A DNA stretch of 4,106 nucleotides from the IMG/VR virus record IMGVR_UViG_2541047433_000013. One strand, given 5' to 3'. Position numbers and translations under genes: made by a program. This document shows, piece by piece, positions 1 to 4,106 of the stretch; position 1 is the first letter of the stretch; each line of letters starts with the position of its first letter. The stretch is from a virus. Its lineage: Duplodnaviria; Heunggongvirae; Uroviricota; Caudoviricetes. The notes under the pieces were generated by a model, which was given only the letters and a program-made list of their open reading frames with translations, ran no database searches and had not been told where the DNA came from.

Positions 1-85
1 GGTCTTTCCTCGTTACCAGTGCCGTCACTATGACGGTTAAACAGATGACGATCAGGGCGATTAACATCGCCTTTTGCTGCTTCAT
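1..85 (-). CDS. hok: Hok/Gef-family type I toxin, 5' portion only (28 N-terminal codons; gene continues past the left edge)
   Basis: Reverse complement of 1..85 translates to MKQQKAMLIALIVICLTVIVTALVTRKD with ATG at 85..83. From memory this closely matches the N-terminal transmembrane region of HokD/RelF and Gef. AAGGAG Shine-Dalgarno at 100..95 sits 9 nt upstream of the ATG. Not in the ORF track because it is partial. Confidence 0.8.
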   Translation of the reverse strand, partial: MKQQKAMLIALIVICLTVIVTALVTRKD

Positions 86-158
86 AGCCTGCTTCTCCTT
101 GCCTTTCGGCACGTAAGAGGCTAACCTACATGTGTTCAGCATGGATTGAGCCTCAGAT

Positions 159-193
159 TAATGTTAAGCGTCTTGCAGGACGCGTAATGTTAA
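159..193. repeat. 9-bp direct repeat TAATGTTAA (159..167 and 185..193) flanking a 5-bp inverted repeat GCGTC/GACGC (168..172 and 179..183, loop TTGCAG)
   Basis: Read directly from the sequence. It lies in the predicted hok mRNA leader, or equally in the predicted antisense (Sok-like) region. Confidence 0.4.
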
Positions 194-260
194 CTGGGGC
201 TTTTCTCTATCTGCCGTTGGTGTTCATGCCCGAGGCAGATAGCCTCAAGCACCCGCAGCA

Positions 261-2368: not shown

Positions 2369-3079
2369 TTACCCGTTATCTCCTGTCGTTATTTTCTGTA
2401 TGACATCACGATGCTTATTAATTTCCCGCAGCGCGGCGCATAAGCGCTCCCACTTCTGAACCTGACCTTTTGCCCGGCGCAGCTCGCGGTTAGCCACATG
2501 CAGCGATGGTAAAATCAGACCATCCGGATGCTTTCTGATGAACGACGACTGTGACTGCACTGTGACCGCCACACTTTCCGTTTTTATTTCTTCCTGTGTT
2601 TCCGCTTCCCGGACTGGTAACGCAACACCTGCTGGCTGAGGAAAGGCTTTACCATCCGTTTCCGTTATGGATGCGGCTTTCGGCTCTGCCGGTAAATTAT
2701 CGCCCGGTATGCAGTAACGATATTTACCGTCCTGATTCACGCGAATCAGACGCCCTTTGCTGACAGCCATCGCCAGTGATGAATTCGCCCGGCGGGAGGT
2801 AATCCCGAACATTAGCGCCAGTTCGTCAGCCGTTTGTGGGCCATGATGTTCAATCGCCTCAGTCAGCATTTGCGCTGTCACTTTCGGTACCGGTGACACT
2901 GGTTCACTTTCACCAGTCTGAGTCAGCCACCACATCGACCCCTTGTTATCCGCTTCACCACGGCGCTTCAGTTTCCACAGTTCGTTGACAGCATCTTCGC
3001 GGCTGATTCCAAGGCGCGATGCCACTACCTGTGAAGAGGCTTTTTTCAGTGCTTTCAGTGCGTCAAATACGGTTTCCAT
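2369..3079 (-). CDS. Tandem winged-helix phage protein, about 236 aa (DUF1627-like), in the position lambda ren occupies after P
   Basis: The track ORF starts with TTG at 3097. I prefer ATG at 3079..3077 (METVFDALK...), which has GGAGG 8 nt upstream. Two segments look like winged-helix HTH units ([10 protein letters not shown]...[10 protein letters not shown] and [10 protein letters not shown]...[10 protein letters not shown]). DUF1627 assignment is from memory. Confidence 0.75.
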
Positions 3080-3112
3080 TAATATTTCCTCCGACAAAAT
3101 CGTTTCTCAGAT

Positions 3113-3775
3113 TCAAATAAAACCAGCTGCCTTCCGGCGTTCGTATTCCTGTTTCAGCCGTTCAATTGGCGTTGGCCCTTGCGGGTGTTTCGCCCCTTCC
3201 AGTTGTCGTCGCACTGGCGGAACACTCATCCCGTTACCAACATGCTTTGCCCATTTCGTCAGTTGCCGTTCCGCAAGTCGTTTTAACTCACCTTGCGTCA
3301 TCTGGCGCTCAATCCCTCTGGTACGCATTTCGAGGCAGATGTGGTACAGCACAGGCTGTGGCCACGGGTATTTATCACTCCCGTCGTATCGCCAGGATTC
3401 ATTGCGCCAGCGCCGGTACTCTTCCATCACGGCATCCACCGTAAGACCAAATGGATTTGCCCCACTCTCCGAAATCAGCGCAACAAACTCAGCCAGGTCC
3501 GGGGGCCACGTTTCACCCGCCCGGCAGCGGTCCATGCACTGACGGCACACCAGACGGATTTGCTGTTCAGTCATCGCACCAATCTGGGCAATCCAGAGCT
3601 TCGAAGGTGCGGCCCCGTTCTTCTGAGTCCAGCGGTTCGAATACACCTCCCCCATGAGCTCCCACAGCTTCCAGGCCGTTTCCGTTGCTGATAAATCCGT
3701 TGTCACGTTCCCACTGTTCGCGTGCAGCCCGGATTTCCTGAACTGCCCGTGATGCCGTGCCACCTGATGCTGCAT
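3113..3775 (-). CDS. Lambda-P-like replication protein (DnaB helicase loader)
   Basis: ORF in the track. The C-terminal half aligns by eye with lambda P as I recall it (conserved YPW, ELRR/ELKR and PVxxQL blocks; MTEQQ versus TMEQV). AAGGGGGG Shine-Dalgarno 5 nt upstream of ATG 3775..3773. Alternative starts are ATG 3655 and ATG 3574. Confidence 0.8.
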   Translation of the reverse strand: MQHQVARHHGQFRKSGLHANSGNVTTDLSATETAWKLWELMGEVYSNRWTQKNGAAPSKLWIAQIGAMTEQQIRLVCRQCMDRCRAGETWPPDLAEFVALISESGANPFGLTVDAVMEEYRRWRNESWRYDGSDKYPWPQPVLYHICLEMRTRGIERQMTQGELKRLAERQLTKWAKHVGNGMSVPPVRRQLEGAKHPQGPTPIERLKQEYERRKAAGFI

Positions 3776-4106
3776 GGCTTCCCCCCTTGCTGACTGGTTT
3801 TACCTGTGCCCTGACGTGCTGCACGTGGCGGGCAAATTTCTGCTCCCACTGAACCTGCGTGAAAACCTTCCCCTCCGCCATCCAGTAATCCCGGAATGCG
3901 GCAAGCTCAGCAGGTGTAAATTCCGGCTCAGGCAGAGCCATACCCCACACTGCTGCCCGTTGTCGAAAATCCGGCGACGGCTGCCAGACAGTAGTCATCG
4001 AAAATTTCCCGATCGGTTCGCTCAGGCCGTCCAGGTATTCAGGTTCGGCTGTCTGCAACGGCGCACCATTCGACTCACTGGTCGGAATACTCTCGCGCGC
4101 GTTATG
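3567..4106 (-). CDS. Replication initiator with a DnaT-like domain, 3' portion (reading frame open to the right edge, so the N-terminus is outside the window)
   Basis: The track ORF 3567..4058 begins at a TTG, but the frame stays open through 4106. The segment GKFSMTTVWQPSPDF...YWMAEGKVFTQVQWEQKFARHV resembles the C-terminal domain of E. coli primosomal protein DnaT (GKFAMYPDWQPDADF...[22 protein letters not shown]), recalled from memory. Confidence 0.8.
   Translation of the reverse strand, partial: HNARESIPTSESNGAPLQTAEPEYLDGLSEPIGKFSMTTVWQPSPDFRQRAAVWGMALPEPEFTPAELAAFRDYWMAEGKVFTQVQWEQKFARHVQHVRAQVKPVSKGGSHAASGGTASRAVQEIRAAREQWERDNGFISNGNGLEAVGAHGGGVFEPLDSEERGRTFEALDCPDWCDD

What the first reader, a model, noticed from the sequence alone, without database searches (positions are those of the whole stretch)
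3113..4106. Mosaic replication module: DnaT-like initiator domain paired with a lambda-P-like loader
Lambda pairs O with P. Here a P-like loader follows a protein whose visible C-terminal part resembles host primosomal protein DnaT. That suggests the initiator may recruit P and DnaB through a DnaT-type single-stranded-DNA or primosome interaction domain, or may interface with the host PriA restart pathway. The origin-binding N-terminus and any iterons are outside the window, and I saw no obvious iterons in 3776..4106.
Basis: partly seen in the sequence, partly recalled or inferred. Interest (0 to 1): 0.45.

Follow-up and report, generated by a model that had tools for sequence, protein, structure and literature searches.

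The report
Prophage DnaT-domain initiator and P loader
This is the replication module of a very common E. coli lambdoid prophage: an origin-binding initiator that carries a copy of the host DnaT single-stranded-DNA-binding domain, followed by a lambda-P-type helicase loader. Databases already name this pairing and the literature describes it, and the only unusual detail is that the loader gene starts 209 bases inside the initiator gene.

Summary
On the minus strand, window 3113-3775 encodes a 220-aa lambda-P-family loader (Pfam E 1.3e-15; the fold matches lambda P). Window 3567-4106 encodes the last 179 residues of an initiator whose residues 35-101 (3804-4004) are a DnaT C-terminal domain (Pfam E 2e-17). 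That domain aligns closely with solved DnaT structures, and all six ssDNA-binding residues are conserved. There is no relationship to lambda O.

The N-terminal domain, ten GTCACGAC iterons and an AT-rich tract lie just right of the window in identical relatives. "Mosaic" is also right: the same C-module is joined to at least three unrelated N-domains.

The pairing is not new. RefSeq names both genes, phiV10 is annotated this way, and DopC/DopE (2017) has the same domain pair. The module is in 1253 of 5426 complete E. coli genomes.

Two results go beyond the finding:
- The DnaT domain does not depend on the loader type. It also pairs with a DnaC-like loader, or with no adjacent loader.
- The P gene starts at 3775, not at RefSeq's 3574. 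It therefore overlaps the initiator's last 69 codons out of frame, and this arrangement is conserved as far as one Vibrio phage.

The mechanism is inferred, not shown.

The parts
3113..3775 (-). Lambda-P-family helicase loader gene, 220 aa plus stop. The real start is the ATG at 3775. RefSeq starts it at 3574 (153 aa).
   Evidence: Pfam PF06992 E 1.3e-15. PHROG 109 matches from residue 18. tblastn homology runs from residue 18 (phiV10) and residue 33 (Vibrio phages). A Met sits at this aligned position in 16 of the 17 loci (15 enterobacterial species loci, one duplicated, and two annotated phage loci); the window's own M1 falls one column over, and M1 is invariant in the 25 protein clusters. 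The AF2 model has helices 28-45, 47-53 and 59-66 upstream of RefSeq's start, and its top Foldseek hits are lambda P chains 9oa1_Y/Z/V at E 2.6e-5 over about 200 columns.
3567..4106 (-). 3' part of the replication initiator gene: 179 codons plus stop. The ORF runs off the right end of the window. It is 347 aa in the 100%-identical relative L001.
   Evidence: Translation. Annotated as WP_001262402.1 'DnaT-like ssDNA-binding domain-containing protein' in L001. PHROG 1408/3729 'replication initiation protein'.
3804..4004 (-). DnaT C-terminal-domain-like three-helix bundle (ssDNA-binding domain).
   Evidence: Pfam PF17948 E 2e-17. NCBIfam DnaT model positions 82-156, E 5.7e-27. PDB 6aep/4ou6/9zbt at E about 1e-20. 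All six residues needed for ssDNA binding in E. coli DnaT (Y127, W128, K133, F135, K143, R146; PMC4132743) are identical. AF2 pLDDT is about 90.
3705..3758 (-). Conserved helix TASRAVQEIRAAREQWER of the initiator. It is encoded in the first part of the overlap.
   Evidence: Here the substitution pattern follows the initiator frame: diversity at its codon position 3 is 0.456, against 0.30 and 0.27 at positions 1 and 2. Initiator amino-acid identity is 0.60 and P-frame identity 0.40. AF2 predicts a helix at residues 120-135. The helix is conserved in distant clusters.
3570..3704 (-). Predicted disordered C-terminal tail of the initiator, with motif G-x-GG-x(3)-EP(L/V)D-x-EERG-x(5)-LD-x-PDW-x-DD. 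It is overprinted on the conserved N-terminal helices of P.
   Evidence: The ORF ends at the same aligned position in 16 intact enterobacterial loci and in Vibrio phage D62; Vibrio phage 199E37-1 stops about 7 codons earlier. Against the saturated comparison with Vibrio phage D62, tail identity is 14/43 where 7.6 is expected from the P protein alone, p 0.0008. P codons S46, Q51 and K52, which lie under D-x-EERG, show zero synonymous diversity. pLDDT is below 50.
3567..3775 (.). 209-nt region read in two frames on the minus strand. The P frame is +1 relative to the initiator frame.
3776..3791 (-). Ribosome-binding site of P. AAGGGGGG lies 5 nt upstream of ATG 3775 and is embedded in the initiator codons S-K-G-G-S-H.
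   Evidence: Sequence context. The initiator motif GG-x-(H/N)-(A/V), which spells GGNGG...ATG in the +1 frame, is conserved in enterobacterial and distant clusters.
4088..4106 (.). Left part of the conserved junction AACCCCACACATAACGCGCGCGAGAG. It borders the AT-rich tract and the iterons that lie just outside the window.
   Evidence: The junction is conserved at DNA level next to different iteron sets and different N-domains. In L001 it follows a 36-nt tract that is 75% A+T, against 46% for the gene.

Best explanation
**Shown.**
- The region is the 3' two-thirds of a lambda-type 'initiator then loader' replication module of an E. coli lambdoid prophage. The gene order is cro-like, ydaT-like, initiator, P-like, and then a DUF1627 gene in the position of ren.
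- The initiator is modular. In the nearest relatives it has an N-terminal domain with no Pfam name. Its coding sequence and the following linker carry two clusters of five GTCACGAC repeats at 10-bp spacing, then a 36-bp AT-rich tract. After that come a DnaT C-terminal-type three-helix bundle, a conserved helix, and a disordered acidic tail.
- The loader belongs to the lambda P family. Its gene starts at 3775, inside the initiator gene and in the +1 frame.

**Inferred.**
- The N-domain binds the iterons, as lambda O does at ori-lambda inside the O gene, and opens the AT-rich tract.
- The tethered DnaT-type domains coat or hold the exposed single strand, as DnaT C-terminal domains do when they form filaments on lagging-strand ssDNA.
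- The helix-plus-tail segment docks the N-terminal helices of P, which arrives bound to host DnaB.
- Tail and P N-terminus are encoded by the same 209 bp. They are therefore always inherited together when N-domains and iterons are swapped at the conserved junction.
For: **Identity of the parts.**

**Origin anatomy in L001.** Ten of the 15 GTCACGAC matches (allowing at most one mismatch) in 13 kb fall in two clusters on the coding strand inside the gene. They are followed by GATAMA repeated five times at 75% A+T.

**ssDNA-binding residues.** All six are conserved.

**DnaT C-terminal-domain filament on ssDNA.** PMC13377028.

**The DnaT domain does not depend on the loader type.** It pairs with P (phiV10, ST512phi13.3), with a DnaC/IstB-like loader (pAEv1818), or with none (SPN1S).

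**The tail tracks this P subtype.** This holds even after non-DnaT domains (Vibrio D62, P0132 with a lambda-O N-domain).

**Overlap conserved.** It is present in 16 intact enterobacterial loci (one more, Leclercia L183, is frameshifted) and two Vibrio phages. Constraint passes from one frame to the other along the overlap. In the comparison with Vibrio phage D62, each frame is conserved beyond what the other frame would impose, p about 0.001.

**Mosaic C-module.**
Against: - Nothing here tests function. Iteron binding, ssDNA binding by this domain, and tail-P contact are all inferences.
- The second half of the tail is only weakly constrained. Synonymous diversity of P is 0.427 inside the overlap and 0.484 outside, Mann-Whitney p 0.23, and AF2 predicts disorder.
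- The statistical support for the tail rests mainly on one distant comparison, Vibrio D62. The second Vibrio phage ends its tail earlier and could not be scored in register.
- The true right flank of this particular window is not known, because no complete E. coli genome holds the whole window in one piece. The N-domain is assigned from 59 loci that are at least 99.8% identical over the fragment.
Confidence: 0.6

Rival explanations
1. The DnaT-type domain is itself the loader-docking domain, the functional equivalent of the lambda O C-terminal domain, and it recruits P-DnaB.
For: - The DnaT domain and P are co-inherited as one block behind different N-domains.
- The same domain pair occurs in DopC/DopE (PMC5509034).
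- Host dnaT and dnaC share an operon and interact genetically (PMC13377028).
- One cluster, P0377, is an in-frame fusion of a DnaT domain to P.
Against: - The domain also pairs with an unrelated DnaC/IstB-type loader, and with no adjacent loader.
- This P subtype also follows initiators with no DnaT domain.
- DnaT-domain initiators pair with two different P N-terminus types, phiV10-type and this one.
- All the ssDNA-binding residues are kept, which a pure protein-docking role would not require.
Confidence: 0.2
2. The DnaT-type domain plugs the phage origin into the host PriA/PriB restart pathway. It docks on PriA as DnaT's C-terminal domain does, or it competes with host DnaT.
For: - The domain aligns closely with the E. 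coli and Klebsiella DnaT C-terminal domain, which docks on PriA through a hydrophobic surface (PMC13377028).
- The segment just before the domain (EPEYLDGLSEP) is acidic, like the PriB-binding linker of DnaT.
- SPN1S-type phages have a DnaT-domain initiator and no loader gene of their own next to it.
Against: - This module brings its own P-type loader, and in lambda P takes DnaB directly.
- The DnaT N-terminal domain is absent.
- The PriA-contact residues are not listed in the text of the paper, so their conservation could not be scored.
Confidence: 0.15
3. The long overlap has no function. The initiator frame simply reads through into the P gene until the first stop, and only the part up to the conserved helix matters.
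For: - In the second part of the overlap the substitution pattern follows the P frame. The initiator's codon position 1 is the most variable, at 0.396.
- Synonymous diversity of P is not significantly lowered there, p 0.23.
- The tail is predicted to be disordered.
- phiV10-type modules work with a 4-nt overlap and no such tail.
Against: - The stop position is the same in all 16 intact enterobacterial loci and in Vibrio phage D62. Only 9-16% of synonymous recodings of P leave that frame open over 43 codons.
- The D-x-EERG...LD..DW motif survives to Vibrio phages and to clusters with other upstream domains, p 0.0008.
- P codons under EERG are frozen at synonymous sites.
Confidence: 0.25

Closest known systems
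Phage lambda O-P replication module with ori-lambda inside gene O
   Same: - The gene order is initiator then loader, downstream of cro.
- The loader belongs to the lambda P family by Pfam and by fold.
- Iterons followed by an AT-rich tract lie inside the initiator gene, in the stretch that encodes the inter-domain linker.
- N-terminal specificity domains are exchangeable, while the C-terminal part travels with the loader.
   Different: - There is no sequence relationship to lambda O: BLASTP E 1.5 and no PF04492 hit.
- The C-terminal part is a DnaT-type domain plus a tail.
- The genes overlap by 209 nt rather than 4 nt.
- The iterons are 8-bp GTCACGAC cores at 10-bp spacing, in two clusters of five, rather than four 18-bp iterons.
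E. coli DnaT (primosomal protein I), C-terminal domain (PDB 4OU6/4OU7, 6AEP, 9ZBT/9ZBU)
   Same: - Three-helix bundle with a close 70-residue alignment at E about 1e-20.
- All six ssDNA-binding residues are identical.
   Different: - The DnaT N-terminal oligomerisation domain is absent.
- The NCBIfam equivalog score is 94.5, against a cut-off of 201.
- The domain is fused behind an origin-binding domain, and a helix and tail that DnaT lacks follow it.
- It is encoded in a prophage next to a loader of a different family from DnaC.
DopC/DopE of Cellvibrionales and Oceanospirillales (Brezellec et al. 2017, PMC5509034)
   Same: An O-like protein with an HTH N-terminus and a DnaT C-terminal motif sits immediately upstream of a lambda-P-like protein.
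   Different: - DopCE is a chromosomal, vertically inherited pair. It has no detectable iterons and is not at the replication origin.
- The present module is in a prophage and has iterons and an AT-rich tract. It looks like the phage form from which such pairs could derive.
- Whether dopC and dopE overlap was not examined.
phiV10 / epsilon15 / Klebsiella ST512-KPC3phi13.3 replication genes (HTH_36 + DnaT-domain protein, then P)
   Same: Same two families in the same order. The phiV10 record already cites the DnaT family and PF06992.
   Different: - These have an ATGA 4-nt overlap, and the initiator ends about 20 residues after the DnaT domain (...PEAWEDFL).
- The N-terminal region of P is of a different type.
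Aeromonas phage pAEv1818 initiator plus DnaC-like loader; host dnaT-dnaC operon
   Same: The pAEv1818 initiator is 55% identical to this one over residues 1-267, including the N-domain and the DnaT domain.
   Different: - The loader is an IstB/DnaC-type ATPase, not P.
- There is no tail and no overlap.

Membership tests
Lambda P helicase-loader family (Pfam PF06992) | Whole-protein score above Pfam's gathering cut-off | tested here: met
   57.9 bits against a cut-off of 26, E 1.3e-15.
Lambda P helicase-loader family (Pfam PF06992) | Fold like solved lambda P, over the full length | tested here: met
   The AF2 model (mean pLDDT 69) has lambda P chains 9oa1_Y/Z/V as its top Foldseek PDB hits: E 2.6e-5, probability 1.00, 194-211 aligned columns. 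The rmsd is high, about 16 A, which means the domains are placed differently.
Lambda P helicase-loader family (Pfam PF06992) | Binds and loads host DnaB | not testable with these tools
   Needs biochemistry.
DnaT (NCBIfam NF002770 equivalog) | Whole-protein score at or above the curated cut-off, meaning the same function as DnaT | tested here: not met
   94.5 bits against a cut-off of 201. Only model positions 82-156 of 179 match.
DnaT (NCBIfam NF002770 equivalog) | DnaT N-terminal oligomerisation domain | tested here: not met
   Nothing matches DnaT residues 1-81. The N-terminus is a different domain with no Pfam hit.
DnaT C-terminal DNA-binding domain (Pfam PF17948) | Domain score above the cut-off | tested here: met
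   63.1 bits against 25, E 2e-17.
DnaT C-terminal DNA-binding domain (Pfam PF17948) | Residues required for ssDNA binding (Y127, W128, K133, F135, K143, R146) | tested here: met
   They are identical at Y242, W243, K248, F250, K258 and R261 in the HMMER alignment. The residue list comes from PMC4132743.
DnaT C-terminal DNA-binding domain (Pfam PF17948) | Docking on PriA, and handover of ssDNA from PriB | not testable with these tools
   The interface residues are given only in figures of PMC13377028.
Lambda O initiator family (Pfam PF04492; lambda O C-terminal region) | Sequence or profile similarity to lambda O | tested here: not met
   No PF04492 hit at E up to 1. BLASTP against lambda O gives E 1.5. 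hhalign of the tail profile against lambda O gives probability 0.1%.
Lambda-type origin inside the initiator gene | Cluster of four or more direct iterons next to an AT-rich tract, within the initiator coding sequence | tested here: met
   Seen in L001, which is identical to the window over 3113-4106. There are five plus five GTCACGAC repeats at 7041-7089 and 7311-7370, then 36 nt at 75% A+T. All of this lies outside the window.
Lambda-type origin inside the initiator gene | Supports initiator-dependent replication | not testable with these tools
   Needs a plasmid replication assay.
DopC/DopE | O-like HTH + DnaT_C protein next to a P-like protein | tested here: met
   Domain pair confirmed. 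Description in PMC5509034.
DopC/DopE | Resident chromosomal pair without iterons, replacing DciA | tested here: not met
   The context is a prophage: cro, ydaT, DUF1627, hok/sok, and RusA further on. Iterons are present. The host is E. coli, which has DnaC.

The most novel reading that the evidence does not exclude
The initiator's helix-plus-disordered tail is the docking element for P, and it is written in an alternative frame over the very helices of P that it binds. Both halves of the initiator-loader interface would then share one 209-bp stretch of DNA, and recombination in a highly mosaic phage population could never separate them. In the same reading, the tethered DnaT-type domains act at a phage origin the way DnaA does at oriC: they are held at the origin by duplex binding and form a filament on the single strand. 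That would give an experimental model for the DnaT/DnaA parallel proposed in 2026, and a plausible phage source for the host dnaT-dnaC and dopC-dopE pairs.
Probability: 0.2. Interest if true: 0.6.

Novelty: new member of a known kind. Interest (0 to 1): 0.3.

Why it matters
**As stated, the finding adds little.**
- RefSeq already names the two genes.
- The DnaT-C-terminus/P-like pairing was published for DopC/DopE.
- The module is present in about a quarter of complete E. coli genomes.

**Three by-products have some value.**
1. The DnaT-type domain in phage initiators does not depend on the loader type. This argues for a role on DNA rather than as a loader adaptor, and it bears on how host DnaT works and where it came from.
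2. RefSeq and GenBank annotations shorten this P protein by 40-80 residues. They drop three conserved helices, because gene callers avoid long overlaps.
3. The conserved out-of-frame overlap of initiator tail and loader N-terminus suggests a testable idea about how interacting partners stay linked in mosaic phages.

Tried and rejected
**Lambda O relationship: rejected.** This covers the whole protein and my own impression that lambda O's C-terminus (LDLTNTDW) resembles the tail. BLASTP gives E 1.5 and hhalign probability 0.1%.

**Synonymous-site suppression as proof of selection on the tail: not significant.** Diversity is 0.427 against 0.484, p 0.23. Only a local freeze under the EERG motif was seen.

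**Synonymous-reshuffle test against Klebsiella Kp4865-4: significant but biased.** Synonymous sites are not saturated in that comparison, so I rely only on the Vibrio D62 comparison. Vibrio 199E37-1 could not be scored, because its tail ends 7 codons earlier and the stop-anchored register is wrong.

**Programmed frameshift producing an initiator-P fusion: considered but not pursued.** PHROG 15931 (482 columns) matches both proteins. The fused database entries are either single-member deletions (P0256) or one Logan cluster with a garbled C-terminus (P0377).

**Two scans of viral contigs: little new.** They returned only relatives that are 96-100% identical. The species-level genome scan gave the useful diversity.

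**Searching for the whole window: no single match.** No complete E. coli genome holds it in one piece, so the true right flank is inferred.

**Promoter and terminator scan of 3000-4106: nothing above chance**.
Full report
**What is in the window.** All genes in the 4106-nt window are on the minus strand.
- The ORF at 3113-3775 (220 aa) is a member of the lambda P family. Pfam PF06992 gives 57.9 bits against a cut-off of 26, E 1.3e-15. PHROG 109 'P-like helicase loader' matches residues 18-220.
- Lambda P is the only solved relative by sequence (8v9t). It is also the top structural match of an AlphaFold2 model: 9oa1 chains Y/Z/V, E 2.6e-5, 194-211 aligned columns.
- The ORF that runs off the right end (3567-4106, 179 codons) carries a DnaT C-terminal domain at residues 35-101, which is window 3804-4004. 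Pfam PF17948 gives 63.1 bits against 25, E 2e-17.
- That domain aligns with solved DnaT C-terminal domains (6aep, 4ou6, 9zbt) at E about 1e-20 over 70 residues.

**Source and completion of the initiator.**
- The 994-nt region is 100% identical to prophage DNA in many E. coli O157:H7 genomes. It occurs at 80% identity or better in 1253 of 5426 complete E. coli genomes, with up to six copies per genome.
- In strain TR01 (locus L001) RefSeq annotates a 347-aa 'DnaT-like ssDNA-binding domain-containing protein' and a 153-aa 'replication protein P'. They lie downstream of cro-like and YdaT-like genes and upstream of a DUF1627 gene.
- No complete genome contains the whole window in one piece, so the right flank is inferred. 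All 59 metagenomic/viral loci whose initiator fragment is at least 99.8% identical to the window have the same N-terminal domain, MANAWLRLWHDMPNDPKWRT.... That domain has no Pfam match.

**Origin.** This part lies outside the window.
- In L001, ten of the fifteen GTCACGAC matches (allowing at most one mismatch) in 13 kb fall in two clusters of five on the coding strand, at 10-bp spacing, inside the initiator gene (7041-7089 and 7311-7370).
- The second cluster is followed by GATAMA repeated five times (36 nt, 75% A+T against 46% for the gene), and then by AACCCCACACATAACGCGCGCGAGAG. The window's right end cuts this last motif.

**Relation to DnaT and to lambda O.**
- Only the C-terminal domain of DnaT is present. 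The NCBIfam DnaT equivalog matches positions 82-156 of 179 and scores 94.5 against a cut-off of 201.
- All six residues whose mutation abolishes ssDNA binding by E. coli DnaT are identical in the prophage protein: Y127, W128, K133, F135, K143 and R146 (PMC4132743; alignment).
- There is no similarity to lambda O. BLASTP gives E 1.5 and Pfam Phage_rep_O gives no hit.

**Mosaicism.**
- Rac-SA53, PPompW and Klebsiella Kp4865-4 have unrelated N-terminal halves. From '...LNPTHNA' onward they share the C-terminal block of DnaT domain, tail and P.
- Within E. coli viral contigs the same block follows the unnamed N-domain at 99.8% nucleotide identity, a DUF1376 domain at 97.6%, and an HTH_36 domain at 94.4%.
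- At DNA level the breakpoint lies between the iterons, which differ with the N-domain, and the AT-rich tract plus AACCCC(A/T)C(A/T)C(A/T)TARCGCG junction, which is shared.

**Is the DnaT domain the loader adaptor?** The comparative evidence says probably not.
- DnaT-domain initiators sit next to P with a 4-nt overlap in phiV10, BUCT554 and Klebsiella ST512-KPC3phi13.3.
- In Aeromonas phage pAEv1818 the neighbour is a DnaC/IstB-type loader. That initiator is 55% identical to this one over residues 1-267.
- In SPN1S there is no adjacent loader.
- Conversely, this subtype of P follows initiators without a DnaT domain. Examples are Vibrio phage D62 (HTH_36) and P0132, which has a true lambda-O N-domain.
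- Together with the conserved ssDNA-binding residues, this favours a role on DNA. The model is the DnaT C-terminal-domain filament on single-stranded DNA seen in the 2026 preprimosome structures, whose authors draw a parallel to DnaA (PMC13377028).
- A role in docking to PriA cannot be excluded.

**The overlap.** The P reading frame opens at 3799, and its first ATG is at 3775, preceded by AAGGGGGG.
- Homology to other P-like proteins begins at residue 18-33.
- A Met sits at this aligned position in 16 of the 17 loci (15 enterobacterial species loci, one duplicated, and two annotated phage loci); the window's own M1 falls one column over. M1 is invariant in the 25 protein clusters.
- The AF2 model has residues 1-27 disordered and helices at 28-45, 47-53 and 59-66.
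- RefSeq's start at 3574 (M68) therefore removes three conserved helices. Public gene calls vary between 220-223, 177-181, 153 and 140 aa.
- With the start at 3775, the last 69 codons of the initiator overlap P in the +1 frame (3567-3775).
- This arrangement is kept in 16 intact enterobacterial loci (the window's own relative L001, two annotated phages Rac-SA53 and PPompW, Klebsiella Kp4865-4 and 12 further species; one more species locus, Leclercia L183, is frameshifted) and in two Vibrio phages. phiV10-type modules lack it.

**Constraint along the overlap.**
- In the first 27 codons the substitution periodicity follows the initiator frame. Diversity at its codon position 3 is 0.456. Initiator identity is 0.60, the conserved helix is TASRAVQEIRAAREQWER, and P identity is 0.40.
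- In the remaining 42 codons the periodicity follows the P frame. P position 3 is 0.379 and P identity is 0.79.
- The initiator tail in that second part is predicted to be disordered and is only weakly constrained overall. P synonymous diversity is 0.427 there against 0.484 outside, p 0.23.
- Three observations argue that the tail is not simply free. Its stop position is the same in all 16 intact enterobacterial loci and in Vibrio phage D62, while Vibrio phage 199E37-1 stops about 7 codons earlier. The motif D-x-EERG...LD..DW survives to Vibrio phage D62 beyond what the P protein imposes: 14/43 identities against 7.6 expected, p 0.0008. P codons S46, Q51 and K52 under that motif have no synonymous variation.
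- An exhaustive HMMER search found only 162 representative clusters with the DnaT domain and/or tail among 1.84 billion. About 25 carry both. The tail also occurs after other domains.

**Mechanism.** Steps 1 to 4 and the consequence are inferred.
1. The N-domain binds the iterons and opens the AT-rich tract.
2. The tethered DnaT-type domains hold the single strand.
3. The helix-plus-tail docks the P N-terminal helices.
4. P delivers DnaB.

One consequence of the overlap is that tail and P N-terminus cannot be separated by recombination at the conserved junction.

**Novelty.**
- The domain pairing is already in RefSeq product names and in the phiV10 record, which cites HAMAP DnaT and PF06992.
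- It is also in the DopC/DopE paper, which describes an HTH + DnaT_C protein next to a P-like protein (PMC5509034).
- Full-text searches found no paper on DnaT-domain phage initiators as such, and none on the overlap.
- I therefore rate the finding as a new member of a known kind, of modest interest. The independence of the DnaT domain from loader type and the conserved dual-coding stretch are the parts worth following up.

Noticed in passing
window 2-85 (-) and 80-254 (-): The left end of the window holds the start of a Hok/Gef-type toxin gene (MKQQKAMLIALIVICLTVIVTALVTRKD..., which runs off the window). It also holds a full-length sok antitoxin RNA (Rfam RF01794, 113.5 bits against a gathering score of 59). 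This is a hok/sok type I toxin-antitoxin locus inside the prophage.
   Followed up: partly
window 3574 (RefSeq start) versus 3775; L001 6001-6462; L002 2501-2962; L003 2501-2923: RefSeq and GenBank annotations of this P-like gene start 67-80 codons too far downstream. That removes three conserved helices. Public gene calls for the same gene range over 140, 153, 177-181 and 220-223 aa.
   Followed up: yes
L001 6975-7040 and the equivalent sites in L002, L003, L170-L183; window 4088-4106 is its edge: A DNA motif, AACCCC(A/T)C(A/T)C(A/T)TARCGCG, preceded by an AT-rich GAT-periodic tract, is conserved next to quite different iteron sets and N-domains. It may be the unwinding element of the origin, a recombination junction for module exchange, or both.
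   Followed up: partly
window 2369-3097 (-): The gene in the position of lambda ren is a 242-aa DUF1627 protein (E 1.3e-78) with winged-helix-like N-terminal matches. It also has a weak PHROG hit to 'Ren-like exclusion protein' (E 1.7e-4, residues 77-126).
   Followed up: no
L184 (Aeromonas phage pAEv1818) 1729-3401: An initiator 55% identical to this one, including the DnaT domain, is followed by a DnaC/IstB-type loader. The order mirrors the host dnaT-dnaC operon, which suggests that operon could descend from such a phage module.
   Followed up: partly
protein P0377 (298 aa, 44 member sequences, Logan assemblies): This is an in-frame fusion of a DnaT domain to a P-like protein. Its C-terminus looks frameshifted. 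It is not clear whether it is a real fused variant or an assembly or pseudogene artefact.
   Followed up: no
L183 (Leclercia adecarboxylata) 1941-2192: In this species' copy, a frameshift joins the start of the P frame to the initiator tail and truncates both genes. It is a decayed copy of the module.
   Followed up: no
proteins P0080 (983 aa) and P0148 (562 aa): Two long proteins each match the DnaT-domain query in six or seven separate stretches, so they may carry tandem arrays of DnaT-like domains.
   Followed up: no
whole window: No complete E. coli genome contains the 4106-nt window as one piece. The best match covers 80% at 97.4% identity in two pieces. The window is itself a mosaic not represented in that collection.
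   Followed up: partly
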